DNA from: a virus | Taxonomy: Duplodnaviria > Caudoviricetes | Virus record (IMG/VR): IMGVR_UViG_3300021082_000023 | Location: 794-64,793 of that record | Direction: 5' to 3' (one strand) | Length of the DNA stretch: 64,000 nt | In this document: one piece after another, positions 16,113 through 54,919 of the stretch | How the letters are laid out: each line of letters opens with the position of its first letter | How positions within the stretch are numbered: the first letter of the stretch is position 1 | Notes under the pieces: generated by a model | Told to the model about the DNA's origin: nothing | What the model saw: only the letters and a program-made list of their open reading frames with translations | The model's database searches: none | Program-made: the position numbers and the translations under genes

Positions 16113-16604
16113 TTATTCGCCATCCCTTTCCGACGATTGTATTGCGCGTATCAAGCTCGGCGCTGTCTTCTGAATCAGCCGGAAGATTGGCCGCTCTTTG
16201 GCAATCAACGCCTGACGCATCTGCGCGCGCTCCAGCTTTTGCGCGTGTCGCACTTTCTGAGATTCCGTAAGCAGCCCAACGTTGGTATTGGTGCCAAGAA
16301 TTACGGCACGTGTTGTCAGGTCTTTTGATTTTCGAAGATACTGTCCCATCACTTCGTGGTTCTGTGACGCGGGGATGATCTCGAATGCCTGCCCGTTGTG
16401 GCCCTGCCCTGAAAGAAAGAAGCCTTCGCGTTCAAGCTCACGACGAATCCTTGAGACGTCCACTCCAAATCGAATTGACTTGATTGGTACCGACAGCTCC
16501 GCCTCGAAGAAATCGGCAGTGAATACGGACCCGTATTCGATTCCAATTTTCCTCATGCTGTCGAGGCAGTTCTTCCAGAGCGGGAGTCGGCGAACTTCAA
16601 TCAT
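16113..16604 (-). CDS. Putative partner protein of the RAMP/array locus (possible winged helix plus helical tail)
   Basis: GGAGG RBS just after the array B hairpin; 163 aa; LPLWK...YG...IRRELEREGFFL...G. Confidence 0.65.
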   Translation of the reverse strand: MIEVRRLPLWKNCLDSMRKIGIEYGSVFTADFFEAELSVPIKSIRFGVDVSRIRRELEREGFFLSGQGHNGQAFEIIPASQNHEVMGQYLRKSKDLTTRAVILGTNTNVGLLTESQKVRHAQKLERAQMRQALIAKERPIFRLIQKTAPSLIRAIQSSERDGE

Positions 16605-16624
16605 ATTGCCTCCAAATTAAAACT

Positions 16625-16750
16625 ATTCGGGGGCCGAAGCCCCCGAATGAGATTGCTGAGCTACGCTGAGCTCGGCAAAGCGCAGCGGCGGGGCTCTGCG
16701 CGGAGCAGCGACGCGCGATGCTATGCGAAGGAGCGCGGCGTGCTGGAAAT
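16625..16750 (-). ncRNA. Periodic RNA array B: (NN-NGC)n, CAGCAATC, UUCG hairpin
   Basis: 5-nt period; 13 of the first 17 triplets are GCN on the + strand (NGC in the RNA); ATTCGGGGGC-TTCG-GCCCCCGAAT at 16625-16648. Confidence 0.8.
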
Positions 16751-16779
16751 CGAACAATAATCTATTAGTCATGGTGCTC

Positions 16780-16898
16780 TCCCGGGAATAATCCCGGGAT
16801 GTGATTGCTGGGCAACACTACGCACTGCTAGGGCCTGCTGGGCACTGAGACGCTGCGCTCCGCTCTGCAGTGCCGCGCATAGTCGTGAACTCGAAACA
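16780..16898 (-). ncRNA. Periodic RNA array A: (NN-WGC)n, CAGCAATC, hairpin
   Basis: 5-nt period; 12 of the first 15 triplets are GCN on the + strand; TCCCGGGA-TTAT-TCCCGGGA at 16780-16799; begins right after the RAMP stop codon. Confidence 0.8.
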
Positions 16899-17462
16899 CT
16901 ACAAAACCTCCGATAGAAATCTTCCAAACTTTGGATGCCAGGCCCCGCAGCCGATTTGCCGTCCAGCGATGTCCTGTACGAGAACGATGTTTTTCCGATC
17001 AATGATTTCATCGTCGTATTCCAACTCAAACTCGCAGCTCCATCCGGTCGGGAACATTGGACGAATGCTCATCACGCCAAGCTTCGTCGGTTTTTTTAAT
17101 TGAAAGGTGCTGGCCACCCAGAGCGCCTCTAGTGTGCGAGGGCCTGAATAATTCAGAGGAACGATCTCGTTTGTTACCAAGACTGCCGCCTCCACGTCCT
17201 TTCCGAGCTTCAGCTTTCTGGCCCCAAACTTAATGCACGCTTCGATATTATCGTTCGGCATGAATGGACCCGACTCCTCATCGAAGTACAGCGAGCCCTC
17301 CCACCGTAATCGATAGAGCAGTTCGTAATCCGTTTCGGTTTTCTTCCGCTTGTTTGTGATCTCTTTGCAGCGCTTCACGTATTCATTCAAGGGATCCATC
17401 ATCAACCCGTTCGACATCAGCAATGGGCGAATGCCCGTCCATTTCATCTTGATCGTTTCCAT
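16899..17462 (-). CDS. RAMP/Cas7-like RNA-binding protein (Vipr-like)
   Basis: AGGAG RBS, 187 aa; WTGIRPLLM (beta1), FMPNDNIEACIKFGA, RPMFPTGWSCEF, C-terminal G-loop AGRQIGCGAWHPKFGRF. Confidence 0.8.
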   Translation of the reverse strand: METIKMKWTGIRPLLMSNGLMMDPLNEYVKRCKEITNKRKKTETDYELLYRLRWEGSLYFDEESGPFMPNDNIEACIKFGARKLKLGKDVEAAVLVTNEIVPLNYSGPRTLEALWVASTFQLKKPTKLGVMSIRPMFPTGWSCEFELEYDDEIIDRKNIVLVQDIAGRQIGCGAWHPKFGRFLSEVL

Positions 17463-20346: not shown

Positions 20347-20930
20347 GACTCGATGCCTGCCTGACGTTTGAGATCCTCAGCCTGCCGGCGGATTCGCGCC
20401 TCCCATTCCGGACCTTTGGCGGCAGCAATGTTCGGAGGAATCTCACGCGGCGCACCGGATGGATCCGCGTCGTCCGCCTTGGGCGCTGGAGCCATTTCGA
20501 TCTTCCGTGCGGCCTCAGCAACCATCTCCGCAAATTCGTTTCGTCGTTCTTCGGCGCTGGTTTCCTCGAACCGTTCGTCCTTGATCCGGTCTTCGATGAG
20601 CCGCTGGTTCTTCCGGCTTTCTTCCGTAAGGCGCTTATGGTTGTCTCTCGCAGCGTCGAGAGCGAACTGCCGGATGTGCGCGGGTACCGGAAACTCCTGA
20701 AGAATTCTCACTGCGAGTTCGAATCCCGCGTTGATATCAGCCTCCGACATATCCGCCAGCGCACACAGAAACGCATCCGGGCGATCCGGAAAGTCCTCAA
20801 GAGTCTTCCCGTACATCGGAAACGTCTGGGTGCACCTCCGGAGCCAGAGAACGATCAACGAAAGCCTTGAGTGCTCGGTTGTTTTTCTGTTCGTCGGTTT
20901 CACGATGTTTCCCATTTCCATTTGCTCCAT
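20343..20930 (-). CDS. Putative helicase loader/inhibitor (lambda P / G39P position)
   Basis: Follows the initiator; EFPVPAHIR motif; start uncertain. Confidence 0.5.
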   Translation of the reverse strand: MEQMEMGNIVKPTNRKTTEHSRLSLIVLWLRRCTQTFPMYGKTLEDFPDRPDAFLCALADMSEADINAGFELAVRILQEFPVPAHIRQFALDAARDNHKRLTEESRKNQRLIEDRIKDERFEETSAEERRNEFAEMVAEAARKIEMAPAPKADDADPSGAPREIPPNIAAAKGPEWEARIRRQAEDLKRQAGIES

Positions 20931-21618
20931 TTCGATTGAACTTGATTGAGTTCCGCATCCAGGTGCGCCAGGTTGCCTCCCAGTCGAGCCGGGTTTCACC
21001 CTTTCCGCGGAAGTGATCCAGCATCTGCTCGGTCTCGTTTTCGAGGTTCGCCGTCACCCCGTTTTTCGCTGCCCATTCGCGGTGCGTGGAAGTGATCGGA
21101 AAAATGAGAGGAGGTTTCGTTTTTCGCTTTTCGGACTTCGGTTCCCCATTCCCCTTTGGGTTCAATTTGGTTTCAATTGGGGGTTCCATGGGACTCTGTG
21201 TCCCTACTAGTGGTGACACAGTGTCCCTACCGTATGGACGCTGTGTCCCTACCTTCCCGTTTTGGTGGTGACTCTGTGTCCCTACTAGTGGTGACACAGT
21301 GTCCCTAGGAGTGGTGACGCTGTGTCCCTGATTACTTGGCTCAGAATCCTTAGTTGAGTGGTGACGCTGTGTCCCTACTAAAAGCGTGTAAACCGTCGTC
21401 TGAATCCCGCGCGATTTTCGGGCGATCAACTGGAGGGATTCCAGGGCCTGCACACACCTACCGACGCTGCGTCTAGTCATGCCGGTATCCGCCGCTAAAG
21501 ATGTGAGTGAGGGGTAGCATTGATGCTGTTTGTCGGCCCGGTTTGCCAGCACCATCAACACGTGTTTGCACGTATGCGGCGCGGTTTGCCGAATCGCCCA
21601 ATCGATGTCTTTGTTCAA
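20797..21618 (-). CDS. Replication initiator (HTH_36, lambda O-like)
   Basis: VLMVLANRAD...CYPSLTSLAADTGMTRRSVGRCVQAL; internal iterons; WEATWRTWMRN. Confidence 0.85.
   Translation of the reverse strand: MNKDIDWAIRQTAPHTCKHVLMVLANRADKQHQCYPSLTSLAADTGMTRRSVGRCVQALESLQLIARKSRGIQTTVYTLLVGTQRHHSTKDSEPSNQGHSVTTPRDTVSPLVGTQSHHQNGKVGTQRPYGRDTVSPLVGTQSPMEPPIETKLNPKGNGEPKSEKRKTKPPLIFPITSTHREWAAKNGVTANLENETEQMLDHFRGKGETRLDWEATWRTWMRNSIKFNRNGANGNGKHRETDEQKNNRALKAFVDRSLAPEVHPDVSDVREDS
21190..21380. repeat. Replication origin iterons, 7 copies of GACNCWGTGTCCCT
   Basis: Seven copies counted inside the initiator gene; AT-rich TTCAAT(T)TGG pair at about 21161-21180. Confidence 0.8.
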
Positions 21619-50849: not shown

Positions 50850-51641
50850 TTAAGCCACCACGCGTTCGCCGCGCGATTCCTCTGCGAATGTCAGCGGGTT
50901 TAACCGCTTCCGTTTGCCATGAACGACGCGGACTTCACTGACAAGCCGCATCAGATAGCCATCGTTGACGGCCGGATCCGGAATCAAAAAGAAGTACACC
51001 GCGTCCCCATGAAGCGAATCCGTAAAGCCGGTCAACACACGCATTTGGGACTCCGTCATTTCCTCAAACGTAAACGTCAGTTCAATCCATTCGGTAATCC
51101 GGTTGACGGTGCGGCTTCGGACTTCGCTGATGTTGGTGTTGTTCATCACCGCCCGCAATTCTTCCCATTCGTAATTGAAATTGGTGGCCAGTGTAGTGGC
51201 CAGTCCCACCATAATCCGGCCGATGGAAATACTGTGGCTTGTCGTCTGCGGATCGTGGAGGGTGATCTTGATATACCGATCCGTGCGGGTGGAGGCGGTG
51301 CGGAAGAACACATCGAACTGCCGAAAGGTCATGGTGTCGGTGTGGTCCGTGACACCGGAGGTGGTTCCGCTTTTGATGGTGAACGTACTGCCGGCCGGAA
51401 ACGTGTGATTGATCACCATGATTTGATTCCATGGTGTGGTTACCCCGCGATCGATGCTGATGTTGACATCCACCGGCCCCGTGTAGGCGAGAGAAATGTA
51501 CAGTTCTGAAATGTCGTTTGTGGTGGTGTTGTCGAACAAATGATCGGCATCGAGCGGCCCCTTATCGCAGAGAAGCTGTGTGACTGGATCCAAATCCTTA
51601 TACTGATCGTCGGTCTCCGTCAGGAATGTAAAGAAGCTCAT
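50850..51641 (-). CDS. Distal tail-like protein
   Basis: Directly after the tape measure; ISIGRIMVG...NFNYEW. Confidence 0.6.
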   Translation of the reverse strand: MSFFTFLTETDDQYKDLDPVTQLLCDKGPLDADHLFDNTTTNDISELYISLAYTGPVDVNISIDRGVTTPWNQIMVINHTFPAGSTFTIKSGTTSGVTDHTDTMTFRQFDVFFRTASTRTDRYIKITLHDPQTTSHSISIGRIMVGLATTLATNFNYEWEELRAVMNNTNISEVRSRTVNRITEWIELTFTFEEMTESQMRVLTGFTDSLHGDAVYFFLIPDPAVNDGYLMRLVSEVRVVHGKRKRLNPLTFAEESRGERVVA

Positions 51642-54600
51642 ACGGCGGCCCGCCCCTGAATCATCTGGCGGAATTCGCCGTTATATTTCAGTTCACGAGA
51701 AACCGCCGCCGCGATCTTCCGGCCGAAGGTGTCCGGATCGTCCGAGGCCGCGCCGTTGACAGTGACCGCGATAGTGCCGATGGAGAACGAGCCGCCCATC
51801 CTGGCCTGTGCCGCTGTTTGGACGCGTTCACCTTTATGCAACAGCGCCGGGAAATTGTCGTAAGGGACGTAATCCATTCCGCCATTCAACGGCATGGGAC
51901 TCATCGGATTCAAGGTGGCCGTGATTTTCGCCATGTCGGCCAGTAGGCTGTTGCCGAAATCTTCACTGGCCGCGTCATTCATGTCCCCGATGAGGGTGCG
52001 GAGATTGTTCATCCCCTCCATGGCTTCGTAGTAGGTGAGCGTCCCGGAAACAGCCTTCGAGTTGAAGCTGTTGACGACGTTGTTAAAGTTGGCCCACAGG
52101 TCATTGGACCCTGTACCGTTGGCTCCGAATGATCCCGCTGTAAGAATAGGATTGACACCACCGCCTGAAAAACCAAAGGACGTTCCACCGCCTGACGACG
52201 CGGCCGCGGCTTGGACGGTTTGTCCCAAACCGGAAATGGTTTTCTGCATGTCGCTGATCAGGACATTGGCGAACGAATCAATGGTGGTCCGGCCCTGTGT
52301 GGCCACGGTCCGTTCATCGGATCCGCCGAGGGCAAACTTTTCTGCGGCCTGATCGAACGCGGCGACGATATCTTTCAGGTTGCCGATGTAGGAATTCCCT
52401 TCGTCGGCCGTCAACGTTCCCGCGGCCGCCCGGGCGTTGAAGTCCCCGATCAGCTGATTGATGACCCCCGTGTTTTGCTGATTGATGAGCGGCTCCTGCA
52501 GTTCCTTCACGAAGGTGTTGGCTTCCCAGTGAGCCTGAGATTTGATTGCGGCGACCACGCCAGCCACCGCAGCCCCGATGCCCAGTGTCGATGCCCCGGC
52601 CAGTCCGATCCCACCAAACAAGCTGGTACTGCCACCCAGCCCGAGAAGAGACGTGGTCCCCGTGGCACTGCCGACGCCAGTGATGCCGCCGCTCAATCCA
52701 AAGCTTCCGGCCAAACCGCCGATGCCTGTCGTCGTGCCGGTCGCCCCGGCGCCGCCTGTCGCCGCGCCAAATAGCGTCTCGGCCAGCGACTTCCCGAGAT
52801 TGGCCAAGGAGTTTGTAAATGGGCTGATGAAACCGGAAATGAAGGAACTGAGCAACGATGACGCCGTCGTCTGACCAATATTGATCAACGAATCCATGTT
52901 GAATTTGAAATGGACGATCATGTCGGCGAAACTTTCCGCAAGCCGCGTATTCAGGTTTGCGATTGCGGCGACGAAGGCATCCGAGTATCGGTTCTCTTCT
53001 TTGATTCGGTTGTCGGCGGATTTCTTTTGCGCCTTGTCCCAGGATTCATAGAACTCGACGTTCTTATCCAGATCAGTTTCGCGGAGACCGTTGATCTTGT
53101 TGAACAGATCATTAGTAGAGGTTAGGTTTTTCTGGTCTGCCTCTTCCCACGCCAAGTGTGCCTGATAGCGAGCCTGCGCGATGGTCACCCACGCACTGGT
53201 GCCGGTAAACGCCAACTCGCTGTGGGCCACTTGAACTTTCTGAAGTGATTCGATGTAGTCGTCGTTGGCACGTTCGGCTTTGTCGAAACCGTCCAGCCAC
53301 GCGGCCACAAACTTCGCCGCGGCTTCCACCTGCAATTGATAACGATCGGCCAGCACCTGGCGGTACGCCTTCTCAATTGCGATTTGTTTTTCGGTCATCG
53401 CGGCCGAGTCCGCGGAGGCCTTGGTGAATTTGTCGACGGCGGCCGCGAAGTCGATATGGGACGCCGTTCCCGCATATGTGGCTTTGAGTTGATCTCCCAG
53501 ACCCGCAACGTATTTAGAATTCCCGAGCTGTGTCACGTCATAGGAAATGCCCGCCTTGTCCAGTGACGCGCGCATTTTGTCAGTTGCATCGGCGGCCATC
53601 TTATTCGCGGCGATCACACTGTCCTGGCCCGTCAGGTAGGTGCCGATGACGGAGTTGTTCCAATTCAAAACGGAGGCCACCATCTTGTCGAAACTCTTTT
53701 GAAAACCGCCGATTTCAATAATCCAATTGATGAACAGGCCAATCAGGTGGCCCACTTCCGCGGCGACAAGCACCAGCCCGCCGATCAGAATGTTTCCAGC
53801 CGTGAACACGCCGGCAAGGGCGGTCTTGACCAGAGTCAGACCAGCGGAGAACTGGCCAAGGATCCCTGTCGCTGCCGTGGTCTTCACCGATGTGCCGACG
53901 ATGGCATCCCCCATTAACCCCACTTCGGCCGTGGTCGCTACCGATGTGGTTCCCAGTGTCCCGATGGCCAGAATCAGTTTTGGCAGAACCGTAATCAAAC
54001 CGCCGATCGCCAGCAGCACACCCCCACCGCCGATCATCGCGGCTGCGATTTCCAACAGTGTGGTCGCCAGTTTTGGATTCTCGTTGATCCAATCCTTTGT
54101 CGCCACAATCACGTCTGTGATGCCGGAGACCATCTTCAGAAACACGGGATACGCCTGTTCCCCAATCGCGCGCGTCAGCCCGATCACACTTTGATTCATC
54201 GCGAAAAGGGCATCATCAAATTCATCGGCTTTGTCGGAAGCTTCCCCACCAAACACAATCCCCAGCCGCTGGGCTTCGGCCGACAACTTGGCGATACCAT
54301 CCCGCCCTTCATTCAACATGGGAATCAGGGCCAGTCCGCCGCGGCCAAACAGTTCCACGGCGATCGCGGACTTCTGTGCGCCGTCTTCCATGTTTTTGAA
54401 TTTATCGGCGACATCCAACAACACTTCCGACGTGGGCCGCAAATGGCCGTTGGCGTCGGTCACACTGATCCCCAGTTTCTTGAATGTTTCGTTAGCGGAA
54501 TCGCCCTTGGTAGTGACGTCTTCCATGTGGGTGGCCAGCAAGCGAATACCCGTGGTGACATCTCCGATGGAAGCCCCACTCTGGCCCGCGGCGTATCCAA

Positions 54601-54919
54601 ACTCGGACAGGGTTTCTGTACTGATGCCGGTCCTGGCGCTCAAATCGTGCATGGCAGCGCCGATCTTGGATGTGGACTCCGCCATCTCGAACAAGGCACC
54701 CACCACGGCAACCCCAGTGGTGGCGATCGCGGCGCCGGTCACGGCGAACACCGCTCCAACCTGAGACCAACTGACCTGCATCCCTTTGGCGGCTTCAGTC
54801 GATTTCGCGCTTAATTTGTCGGATTCATCGGCAGTCTTCTCAATGGATTTTGAGATGTTGTCAAACGTCGAGATGACGCCGTCTTCACTGATCTTTGTGA
54901 CGAATTGTATGGTCGGCAC
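51638..54919 (-). CDS. Tape measure protein
   Basis: 1093 aa, Ala/Gly-rich helical; LSARTGISTETLS, ELFGRGGLALIPML, MLHKGERV-like C-terminus. Confidence 0.92.
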   Translation of the reverse strand: MPTIQFVTKISEDGVISTFDNISKSIEKTADESDKLSAKSTEAAKGMQVSWSQVGAVFAVTGAAIATTGVAVVGALFEMAESTSKIGAAMHDLSARTGISTETLSEFGYAAGQSGASIGDVTTGIRLLATHMEDVTTKGDSANETFKKLGISVTDANGHLRPTSEVLLDVADKFKNMEDGAQKSAIAVELFGRGGLALIPMLNEGRDGIAKLSAEAQRLGIVFGGEASDKADEFDDALFAMNQSVIGLTRAIGEQAYPVFLKMVSGITDVIVATKDWINENPKLATTLLEIAAAMIGGGGVLLAIGGLITVLPKLILAIGTLGTTSVATTAEVGLMGDAIVGTSVKTTAATGILGQFSAGLTLVKTALAGVFTAGNILIGGLVLVAAEVGHLIGLFINWIIEIGGFQKSFDKMVASVLNWNNSVIGTYLTGQDSVIAANKMAADATDKMRASLDKAGISYDVTQLGNSKYVAGLGDQLKATYAGTASHIDFAAAVDKFTKASADSAAMTEKQIAIEKAYRQVLADRYQLQVEAAAKFVAAWLDGFDKAERANDDYIESLQKVQVAHSELAFTGTSAWVTIAQARYQAHLAWEEADQKNLTSTNDLFNKINGLRETDLDKNVEFYESWDKAQKKSADNRIKEENRYSDAFVAAIANLNTRLAESFADMIVHFKFNMDSLINIGQTTASSLLSSFISGFISPFTNSLANLGKSLAETLFGAATGGAGATGTTTGIGGLAGSFGLSGGITGVGSATGTTSLLGLGGSTSLFGGIGLAGASTLGIGAAVAGVVAAIKSQAHWEANTFVKELQEPLINQQNTGVINQLIGDFNARAAAGTLTADEGNSYIGNLKDIVAAFDQAAEKFALGGSDERTVATQGRTTIDSFANVLISDMQKTISGLGQTVQAAAASSGGGTSFGFSGGGVNPILTAGSFGANGTGSNDLWANFNNVVNSFNSKAVSGTLTYYEAMEGMNNLRTLIGDMNDAASEDFGNSLLADMAKITATLNPMSPMPLNGGMDYVPYDNFPALLHKGERVQTAAQARMGGSFSIGTIAVTVNGAASDDPDTFGRKIAAAVSRELKYNGEFRQMIQGRAAV

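What the first reader, a model, noticed from the sequence alone, without database searches (positions are those of the whole stretch)
16113..17462. Phage RAMP/Cas7-like gene with two 5-nt-periodic guide-like RNAs and a partner gene
Seen: a 187-aa gene with RAMP-type motifs (beta1 WTGIRPLLM, FMPNDNIEACIKFGA, G-loop GRQIGCGAWHPKFGRF) is followed directly by two ~100-nt units. Each alternates a variable dinucleotide with a near-constant triplet (NGC in the RNA; 12/15 and 13/17 in phase), shares the 3' end CAGCAATC and closes with its own hairpin (16780-16799; UUCG hairpin 16625-16648). There is no CRISPR repeat, cas1, cas3, cas5, cas6 or nuclease. Knowledge: Cas7-group proteins polymerise on RNA with a fixed nucleotide step. 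As I recall, the recently reported VIPR systems pair a phage RAMP with GGY/NN RNAs; this should be checked. Inference: one subunit binds per 5-nt unit, giving an RNA-guided complex. The NGC triplet would be a variant of the GGY code.
Basis: partly seen in the sequence, partly recalled or inferred. Interest (0 to 1): 0.97.

Follow-up and report, generated by a model that had tools for sequence, protein, structure and literature searches.

The report
Phage VIPR locus with G1-less guide repeats
This phage carries a VIPR system, a recently described RNA-guided DNA-silencing system related to CRISPR; its guide repeats lack the usual first G, the protein pocket that reads that G is altered, and one guide spells a conserved tape-measure gene motif of other phages.

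Summary
The 187-aa gene (16899-17462, minus) is a full-length homolog of the solved SUSP1 Vipr protein (PDB 36pp, E 2e-35) and models as a RAMP fold. Downstream on the same strand lie two tracts of 15 pentamers (16805-16879, 16653-16727). Each ends in the linker CAGCAATC(A/T)CAT plus its own hairpin. The 163-aa gene 16113-16604 is a conserved partner (vap-like), next to vipr in more than 50 related loci.

VIPR was published in 2026 (three bioRxiv preprints), so this is a new member of a known kind.

Two points go beyond the finding:
- **Repeat variant.** The repeat is HGC/NN, not GGY/NN: first-position G in 3 of 30 units, G2 in 26, C3 in 28. The two SUSP1 residues that read G1 (H17, D177) are S and A here, while the G2 contacts R and W are kept. 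Of 104 related loci, 101 keep H/D, and nearly all of those have G1 at 70-100%. This fits the YNNNG alternative consensus the discovery paper mentions.
- **Likely target.** Read by the published 1-nt-skip rule, guide 1 spells (F/L)GTTL(S/R)LGLTAPLVA, an N-terminal tape-measure motif. It matches tape-measure genes of several IMG/VR phages at up to 26 of 30 positions. The phage's own tape-measure gene lacks the motif.

No target was found for guide 2. No RNA or binding data exist.

The parts
16899..17462 (-). vipr gene, 187 aa. RAMP protein homologous to SUSP1 Vipr. Its G1-pocket residues are S17 and A174, where SUSP1 has H17 and D177.
   Evidence: phmmer against PDB 36pp_D gives E 2.1e-35 over the full length. 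It matches PHROG 4652 at E 1e-50. The AF2 model has pLDDT 87, and its best Foldseek matches are Csm3/Cas7 and Cas6 chains.
16805..16879 (-). vrRNA 1 repeat tract: 15 pentamers of form xGC-NN. NN series: GC AC AG GG GC GT AG CC AG CT AG GT GT CC AA.
   Evidence: for the periodicity. Under the 1-nt-skip rule it decodes antisense to (F/L)GTTL(S/R)LGLTAPLVA. It matches tape-measure genes at up to 26/30 NN positions.
16780..16804 (-). vrRNA 1 tail: linker TCACAT followed by an 8-bp hairpin (UCCCGGGA/UUAU/UCCCGGGA).
   Evidence: The same linker-plus-hairpin layout, with different stem sequences, occurs in the units of L001 and L105.
16653..16727 (-). vrRNA 2 repeat tract: 15 pentamers xGC-NN. NN series: AT AT GC GC TC GC GC GC TG TT CG TC GT TC AA.
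   Evidence: No target was found; the best match was 23/30.
16615..16652 (-). vrRNA 2 tail: linker TCTCAT, a 10-bp UUCG hairpin (16625-16648), then a T-run. It also scores as intrinsic-terminator-like.
16113..16604 (-). Partner gene, 163 aa (vap-like). N-terminal winged-helix-like domain followed by long helices.
   Evidence: Homologs lie beside vipr on the same strand in more than 50 related loci. The AF2 model has pLDDT 95. Only weak winged-helix matches were found. hhalign against the partner gene of the SUSP1-like phage HY02 gives probability 18%. No Pfam, NCBIfam, PADLOC or PHROG family matched.

Best explanation
The stretch 16113-17462 (minus strand) is a VIPR (Viral Interference Programmable Repeat) module of a tailed phage. 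Its order is vipr, two vrRNAs, then a winged-helix-like accessory gene, the same order seen in its relatives.

By homology with the SUSP1 system, one Vipr protomer should bind each pentamer. The constant triplet would be sequestered and the two variable bases of each unit presented. Together these read double-stranded DNA with one target base skipped per unit, silencing a competing mobile element.

In this lineage the scaffold triplet is HGC rather than GGY. The first G has been lost from the RNA, and the two residues that read it in SUSP1 (H17, D177) are S and A. The G2 contacts (R, W) and a C at position 3 are kept.

Guide 1 is aimed at the conserved N-terminal motif of PF10145-type tape-measure genes of other siphophages. 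This phage's own tape-measure gene lacks that motif.

Shown here: the homology, the anatomy, the repeat statistics, the residue changes and the match of the decoded guide to tape-measure genes. Inferred: expression of the RNAs, filament assembly, DNA binding, silencing, and that the residue changes cause the relaxed first position.
For: - Protein: full-length homology to the solved SUSP1 Vipr. RAMP fold with Csm3/Cas7 as top structural matches.
- Relatives: almost all of the 104 related loci carry 5-nt arrays beside vipr on the same strand, nearly all of form GGC/NN or GGY/NN.
- Periodicity: the two tracts are the only strongly 5-nt-periodic stretches in the 64 kb.
- Tails: a shared linker plus hairpins whose stems differ in sequence but keep the structure, across window, L001 and L105.
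- Partner gene: conserved next to vipr.
- G1 pocket: SUSP1 contacts are taken from the cryo-EM paper. The window protein has S17, A174 and H176, and keeps R134, W175 and K33. Of the 104 loci, 101 have H/D/R, and nearly all of those have G1 at 0.7-1.0. The window has G1 at 3/30. L104 (A/A) has G1 at 0.44. L105 (S/A/H) has 1 G in 7 units of a partial tract.
- Target: anchors of 16 specified bases taken from guide 1 hit tape-measure ORFs, antisense and at the same motif, in 30 of 40 and in 4 of 6 IMG/VR hits. The ORFs match Pfam PF10145 or TMP_2. The best matches are 26/30 NN, above the paper's 80% criterion.
- Control: none of the other 336 tracts called in 107 loci decodes to this motif.
- No self-target: the best self-match is 20/30, which is shuffle level.
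- Phage context: the record is a 64.8-kb virus contig with terminal repeats, terminase, portal and tape-measure genes.
Against: - No RNA-seq, binding or silencing data exist for this locus.
- No perfect target was found. 26/30 matches to a conserved protein motif are homologous to each other, not independent, and may or may not suffice for binding.
- Guide 2 has no target.
- The link between pocket residues and first-position G is imperfect. L001 keeps H/D yet has only about 56% G1. L022 (A17/D) has 78%.
- The residue mapping rests on a 41%-identity alignment and on the paper's text.
- The pseudoknot described for the SUSP1 tail was not established here.
- The partner gene's relation to vap1 is weak (hhalign probability 18%).
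Confidence: 0.88

Rival explanations
1. This is a decaying, non-functional VIPR remnant. Loss of G1 in the repeats and of H17/D177 in the protein would reflect relaxed selection, not a working variant code.
For: G1 is absent and both G1 contacts are replaced. Each tract holds a few off-consensus units, such as CTC, GCC, AGT, GTC, AGA and CCC. No perfect target was found.
Against: Both ORFs are intact. G2 (26/30) and C3 (28/30) are strongly kept. The same substitutions recur in the closest relatives: P0002 has A/T/H and P0005 (L105) has S/A/H. About 29% of 150 family representatives vary at these two sites, while the G2 arginine is kept in 149 of 150. Guide 1 decodes to a coherent 15-residue tape-measure motif. 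The paper reports frequent internal degeneracy in working vrRNAs.
Confidence: 0.06
2. The RNAs are made from the plus strand. GC is palindromic, so the plus strand also reads NNNGC. The hairpin would then be a 5' handle, with the triplet read as GCx.
For: The periodicity is equally visible on both strands. The NN positions, and so the decoded target, are the same for either strand.
Against: Relatives have the non-palindromic GGC/NN on the vipr strand, with the hairpin 3' of the tract. The published architecture is repeats followed by a 3' tail. The second hairpin is followed by a T-run only on the minus strand. The plus-strand reading would require the G2 and Y3 pockets to change, and their residues are conserved.
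Confidence: 0.03
3. The module is a Vipr-family ribonucleoprotein with a different job from silencing rivals. It might regulate the phage's own genes or target RNA.
For: Function is inferred only by homology. Guide 2 has no identified target.
Against: No self-match rises above shuffle level, which agrees with the paper's finding of no self-targeting. Guide 1 matches tape-measure genes of other phages, and the own tape-measure gene lacks the motif. Published VIPR systems bind double-stranded DNA and act on satellites and prophages.
Confidence: 0.03

Closest known systems
SUSP1 / Pseudomonas fulva type II VIPR systems (bioRxiv 10.64898/2026.04.26.720920; structures in 10.64898/2026.04.26.720927, PDB 36pp)
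   Same: The Vipr protein is homologous over its full length (41% identity, E 2e-35). The module is minimal: vipr plus one accessory gene. The vrRNAs are about 100 nt with 15 pentamer repeats (published range 9-16) followed by a constant structured 3' tail. It is phage-encoded and has no CRISPR array. A guide decodes under the 1-nt-skip rule to a structural gene of other phages; SUSP1 guides target satellites that carry tape-measure and baseplate genes.
   Different: The scaffold triplet is HGC, not GGY. The G1-reading residues H17 and D177 are S and A, and R179 is H. The array lies between vipr and the accessory gene. The tail is a plain hairpin, with no pseudoknot established. The accessory protein is not detectably similar to the HY02/SUSP1-type partner by BLASTP and only weakly by hhalign. 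The host is unknown and is not an enterobacterium or Pseudomonas by any evidence here.
VIPR systems with alternative repeat consensus (NNNGG, YNNNG, NNNNG) mentioned in the discovery paper's methods
   Same: xGC-NN written cyclically is C-NN-x-G, that is YNNNG with Y = C.
   Different: The text held here gives no list of which clades use YNNNG and no link to pocket residues. I therefore cannot tell whether this sublineage (S17/A174/H176) was among them.
Class 1 CRISPR-Cas backbone RAMPs (Cas7, Csm3, Cmr4, type VII Cas7)
   Same: RRM/RAMP fold with G-loop and thumb. These are the best structural matches in the PDB (Foldseek E 2e-5 to 1e-3). One subunit binds per fixed RNA step, with periodic base flipping.
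   Different: There is no CRISPR array, no cas1/2, Cas5, Cas6 or large subunit, and no second RRM. The step is 5 nt with only 2 of 5 guide bases pairing, against 6 nt with 5 of 6. Sequence identity is about 10-15%.

Membership tests
VIPR | A Vipr protein: a minimal RAMP (RRM core, G-loop, thumb) homologous to the described Vipr family | tested here: met
   E 2.1e-35 to the SUSP1 Vipr in PDB 36pp_D, residues 2-186 against 2-189. AF2 pLDDT 87 with Csm3/Cas7 and Cas6 as top folds. The G-loop GCGAWHPKFGRF aligns to SUSP1 GVGDWRPRFGRF.
VIPR | vrRNA made of tandem pentamers in which a conserved triplet (GGY, or the related consensus NNNGG, YNNNG or NNNNG) alternates with a variable NN; 9-16 units | tested here: met
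   Two tracts of 15 units, with G2 in 26/30 and C3 in 28/30. The first position is G in only 3/30, so the canonical GGY is not met at G1, but the published alternative YNNNG is.
VIPR | A constant, structured 3' tail after the repeat tract | tested here: met
   Shared linker CAGCAATC(A/T)CAT plus a hairpin in both units. The same layout, with different stem sequences, occurs in L001 and L105. The pseudoknot reported for the SUSP1 clade was not established.
VIPR | NN positions hypervariable while the triplet is constant | tested here: met
   The two units share only 2 of 15 NN dinucleotides. Across 337 tracts in 107 loci the triplet register is constant and the NN vary. Near-identical sister phages, needed to see recent NN turnover, were not available.
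VIPR | An adjacent accessory (vap) gene, in type II a predicted DNA-binding protein | tested here: inconclusive
   A conserved partner lies beside vipr in more than 50 loci. The model shows a winged-helix-like N-terminus, but matches are weak: Foldseek E at or above 0.08, VIA Z 5.3-5.9 to the winged-helix domains of PurR, YydK and NaeI. hhalign to the HY02 partner gene gives probability 18%.
VIPR | Encoded by a virus or provirus, outside any CRISPR-cas locus | tested here: met
   The record is a virus contig with direct terminal repeats. It carries terminase, portal and tape-measure genes. No CRISPR-like array was found. Neighbouring ORFs are not conserved with the module.
VIPR | Guides match genes of other mobile elements under the 1-nt-skip rule (at least 80% of NN positions) and do not match the own genome | tested here: met
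   Guide 1 reaches 26/30 (87%) in tape-measure genes of L165, L158, L151/L129 and L189, with 24-25/30 in ten more loci. The best self-match is 20/30. Guide 2 has no target at or above 80%. The IMG/VR scans could only anchor on exact 8-unit runs.
VIPR | vrRNAs are expressed and co-purify with Vipr; the complex binds dsDNA and represses transcription | not testable with these tools
   This needs small-RNA sequencing, pull-down and reporter assays.
Class 1 CRISPR-Cas effector (Cas7 backbone) | A CRISPR repeat-spacer array and further cas genes (Cas5, Cas6, large subunit, cas1/2) | tested here: not met
   No repeat-spacer array in the 64 kb. The two locus proteins have no PADLOC, Pfam or NCBIfam cas match. 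The other ORFs of the window were not scanned.

The most novel reading that the evidence does not exclude
A sublineage of SUSP1-like Vipr proteins (S/A at position 17, A/T at the D177 position, H at the R179 position) may have co-evolved with its RNAs to a two-base scaffold code, HGC/NN. That would make it a natural experiment showing that G1 recognition is dispensable for filament register. Its guide 1 would be a broad-spectrum guide aimed at the most conserved codons of the tape-measure gene of rival siphophages, not at one specific competitor.
Probability: 0.5. Interest if true: 0.55.

Novelty: new member of a known kind. Interest (0 to 1): 0.42.

Why it matters
VIPR is a months-old discovery, so well-characterised natural variants are useful.

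- **Scaffold requirements.** This locus pairs loss of the first scaffold G in the RNA with loss of both residues that read it. The G2 and Y3 readers stay intact. That gives a direct, testable hypothesis about which contacts set the 5-nt register, and so about how small a vrRNA scaffold can be when engineered.
- **Targets outside the model hosts.** The locus extends natural target prediction beyond E. coli and Pseudomonas. One guide spells a conserved tape-measure motif, which suggests VIPR guides can be aimed at conserved structural-gene codons shared by many rival phages.

It does not change the picture of what VIPR is.

Tried and rejected
- Pfam, NCBIfam and PADLOC gave nothing for either protein. 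Only PHROG 4652 (unknown function) matched Vipr.
- Rfam found no family, including no hammerhead ribozyme between the units.
- No sigma-70-like promoter was found on the minus strand.
- The search for related loci with the single protein found nothing in IMG/VR. The alignment query was needed.
The contigs of the closest proteins, P0002-P0004, could therefore not be read. Only L105 (P0005) was recovered, through the metagenome scan.
- Full-length 1-nt-skip patterns of both guides have no exact match in IMG/VR.
- The 3' half of guide 1 gave 9 chance-level hits.
- Guide 2 anchors gave 17 hits with no convergence on one gene family.
- A tblastn search and an hmmscan with the 15-residue decoded peptides, padded with X, returned nothing because the queries were too short.
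- Guides of relatives do not match this phage above chance.
- The upstream 155-aa ORF and the DUF5681 gene are not conserved with VIPR loci, so they are not part of the module.
- A pseudoknot in the tail was looked for by eye only and not established.
- Terminase similarity (42% or less) does not identify the host.
Full report
**What is there**

On the minus strand of the window lie three things in a row:
- a 187-aa gene, 16899-17462, with a good ribosome-binding site;
- a 294-nt non-coding spacer, 16605-16898;
- a 163-aa gene, 16113-16604.

The spacer holds two 75-nt tracts of 15 pentamers each, at 16805-16879 and 16653-16727. Written as x-G-C-N-N over all 30 units, the base counts are:

| Position | Counts |
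|---|---|
| 1 | A 13, T 7, C 7, G 3 |
| 2 | G 26 |
| 3 | C 28 |
| 4 and 5 | variable |

The two units share only 2 of 15 NN dinucleotides.

These are the two most 5-nt-periodic windows in the 64 kb. In-phase GC occurs in 12 of 15 units in both. Every window with 8 or more in-phase GC belongs to these two tracts; elsewhere in the 64 kb the count does not exceed about 7.

Each tract ends in CAGCAATC(A/T)CAT, found exactly only at these two places. A GC-rich hairpin follows each: 16780-16799 and 16625-16648. The second hairpin is followed by a T-run and scores as terminator-like on the minus strand.

**The protein**

- Pfam, NCBIfam and PADLOC find nothing; PHROG 4652 (unknown function) matches at E 1e-50.
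- Against the sequences of solved structures it matches 'SUSP1 Vipr protein', PDB 36pp chain D, at E 2.1e-35. The alignment covers residues 2-186 against 2-189 with two small gaps.
- An AlphaFold2 model built on 17 homologs has pLDDT 87. Only the G-loop (residues 172-177) has low confidence.
- Its best matches among solved structures are Csm3/Cas7 subunits of type III and type VII complexes, and Cas6 (Foldseek E 2e-5 to 1e-3). That is a RAMP fold.
- The family is large: 2191 cluster representatives at E 1e-3 or better.

**What is known**

Three 2026 bioRxiv preprints describe VIPR.
- The discovery paper (10.64898/2026.04.26.720920) reports phage-encoded minimal RAMPs (Vipr) and an accessory gene (vap). 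Its vrRNAs are about 100 nt, with 9-16 YNNGG repeats and a constant structured 3' tail. DNA is recognised through the NN bases with one target base skipped per unit. Natural targets lie in satellites and prophages.
- The same paper defines seven types. Its methods note alternative repeat consensus forms: NNNGG, YNNNG and NNNNG.
- The structural paper (10.64898/2026.04.26.720927) shows one protomer per repeat. It gives the contacts: G1 is read by H17 and D177; G2 by R138 and W178; Y3 by E71, M72, R179, C173 and T175. K33 contacts the phosphate backbone next to the skipped target base.
- A third paper (10.64898/2026.10.15.759431) shows that SUSP1 needs Vipr and Vap1 to resist a satellite that carries tape-measure and baseplate genes.

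**Relatives**

Scans with a protein alignment gave 80 IMG/VR loci, 24 loci from bacterial genomes (mostly Alphaproteobacteria) and 13 metagenome loci.
- Almost all carry 5-nt arrays next to vipr on its strand. Nearly all are of form GGC/NN or GGY/NN.
- The order vipr, array, partner gene is common, for example in L002, L003, L011, L012 and L014.
- Because GGC is not palindromic, this fixes the transcribed strand in the window as the minus strand. The window's own GC core could not settle that.
- The closest relative with DNA, L001 (56% identity), has four units. Each ends in GGCTAAATCAC followed by a hairpin. L105 (60% identity) has ATTCACAT followed by a hairpin.
- The stems differ in sequence throughout while the layout is kept. 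That is the pattern expected of a conserved RNA structure.

**The partner gene**

tblastn finds homologs of the 163-aa protein beside vipr, on the same strand, in more than 50 loci. In L105 it follows vipr directly. The two flanking ORFs of the window are not conserved with the module.

The AF2 model (pLDDT 95) has an H-E-H-H-E-E N-terminal domain followed by long helices. Structural matches are weak but are dominated by winged-helix DNA-binding domains:
- MarR, GntR, PadR, Z-alpha and Hop2-Mnd1 by Foldseek, at E 0.08 or worse;
- the winged-helix domains of PurR, YydK and NaeI by VIA, at Z 5.3-5.9.

A profile comparison with the partner gene of the SUSP1-like phage HY02 is colinear but weak (probability 18%). 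I call it vap-like. Its equivalence to vap1 is not shown.

**The variant triplet**

The alignment has no gaps before residue 105, so SUSP1 numbering transfers directly.

| SUSP1 residue | Reads or contacts | Window residue |
|---|---|---|
| H17 | G1 | S17 |
| D177 | G1 | A174 |
| R179 | Y3 | H176 |
| R138 | G2 | R134 (kept) |
| W178 | G2 | W175 (kept) |
| K33 | backbone at the skipped base | K33 (kept) |

Both G1-reading residues are therefore replaced in the one system whose RNAs lack G1.

- Of the 104 loci from the first two scans, 101 have H/D/R at these sites.
- Pooled G1 frequency in nearly all of the H/D loci is 0.7-1.0, against 3/30 in the window.
- L104 (A/A) has G1 at 0.44, the rest being A.
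- L105 (S/A/H, like the window) has 1 G in the 7 units of its partial tract.
- The closest proteins share the trend: P0002 is A/T/H, P0005 is S/A/H, P0003 is N/D and P0004 is S/D.
- Among 150 family representatives, H+D occurs in 106, while the G2 arginine is kept in 149. G1-pocket variation is thus recurrent in the family.

The link is not perfect. L001 keeps H/D with only about 56% G1, and L022 (A17/D) has 78%. The low values for L016 and L092 are contaminated by pentapeptide-repeat coding sequence picked up by the periodicity scan.

Written cyclically, xGC-NN is YNNNG, one of the alternatives the discovery paper lists. The RNA pattern as such is therefore not new. Its pairing with the pocket changes is my inference and is not stated in the text I could read.

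**Targets**

I applied the published 1-nt-skip rule.
- *Own genome.* Neither guide matches it above shuffle level. The best scores are 20/30 and 19/30, while 200 order-shuffled guides give maxima of 18-23.
- *Full-length patterns.* Neither has an exact match in IMG/VR.
- *Units 1-8 of guide 1.* An anchor of 16 specified bases gave 40 hits. Of these, 30 lie antisense in large ORFs, near the N-terminus, at the motif ...G..L(S/T).GLTAPLVA.
- *Units 4-11 of guide 1.* A second anchor gave 6 hits, 4 of them at the same motif.
- *Identity of the ORFs.* Seven were tested. Six match Pfam PF10145 (phage minor tail protein) and one matches TMP_2. They are tape-measure proteins.
- *Other anchors.* Anchors of 16 specified bases from elsewhere gave 9 and 17 hits with no convergence.

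Read antisense, the whole guide spells (F/L)GTTL(S/R)LGLTAPLVA, a plausible tape-measure sequence over all 15 codons. The best natural sites match 26 of 30 NN positions (L165, L158, L151/L129, L189), and ten further loci match 24-25. The paper's criterion is 80%.

None of the other 336 tracts called in 107 loci decodes to G-L-T-A-P. The match is therefore not an artefact of composition.

The phage's own tape-measure gene (51638-54919, minus) has no such motif.

This result also supports the register (NN follows xGC) and the 1-nt skip for this variant. It does not discriminate the strand, because the NN positions are the same on both.

Caveats: the tape-measure hits are homologs of one another. 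No perfect site was found. Whether 87% suffices for binding is unknown.

A first-stage note on this genome had proposed the tape-measure reading. I tested it independently, as described above. Guide 2 decodes to IIAASAAA(C/W)(F/L)RSVS(K/N), or antisense to (F/L)(D/E)T(D/E)R(K/N)(H/Q)AAA(D/E)AAI(I/M). It has no target at or above 80%.

**Context**

The window is nearly all of a 64,793-bp IMG/VR virus record with direct terminal repeats. It carries portal, large terminase and tape-measure genes. The VIPR module sits just upstream of a small DUF5681 gene and the terminase. There is no CRISPR-like array and no Rfam family or ribozyme in the region. The host is not identified.

**Verdict**

This is a VIPR locus, a member of the SUSP1-like branch by protein homology. 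Its scaffold lacks G1 and its G1 pocket is remodelled to match. One guide is aimed at a conserved tape-measure motif. VIPR is already described and the YNNNG consensus already mentioned, so I class it as a new member of a known kind. Interest is moderate, resting on the pocket-scaffold pairing and the target prediction. Expression, assembly, binding and silencing are all inferred by homology.

Noticed in passing
window 21187-21380: Seven copies of a 22-23-nt direct repeat (GTGGTGACnCTGTGTCCCTAC) lie inside the ORF 20797-21618 (minus). They look like iterons of a replication origin within a replication-initiator gene.
   Followed up: no
L001:3690-3960: About 10 nt after each of the first three vrRNA tail hairpins in the closest relative there is a conserved motif, CGCAAT(C/T)AT(A/T). 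L105 has CCGCAATCACAC downstream of its hairpin. It could be a promoter element of the next unit or a processing signal. The window lacks it at that position.
   Followed up: partly
L105:1-1274: In this relative with the same S/A/H pocket, the partner gene follows vipr directly and the vrRNA lies upstream of vipr. The position of the array within the module therefore varies inside the sublineage.
   Followed up: partly
window 51638-54919: This is the phage's own tape-measure gene (1093 aa, several PHROG tape-measure families). At the place where guide-1 targets have LG..LS.GLTAPLVA, it has VGAVFAVTGAAIATTG.
   Followed up: yes
L016:5029-5228 and L092:4873-4973: These are coding pentapeptide-repeat genes near vipr (period 5 codons, ACCTGCGCGGCGCCG...). 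The 5-nt periodicity scan picks them up, and they lower the apparent G1 frequency in those loci. They are false positives of the scan.
   Followed up: partly
family representatives P0020-P0169: The G2-stacking tryptophan (W178 in SUSP1) is Y in 47 and F in 10 of 150 representatives. Recurrent pairs at the G1 sites, such as Q/T (6), N/D (8) and C/T (2), suggest several independent pocket variants across the family.
   Followed up: partly
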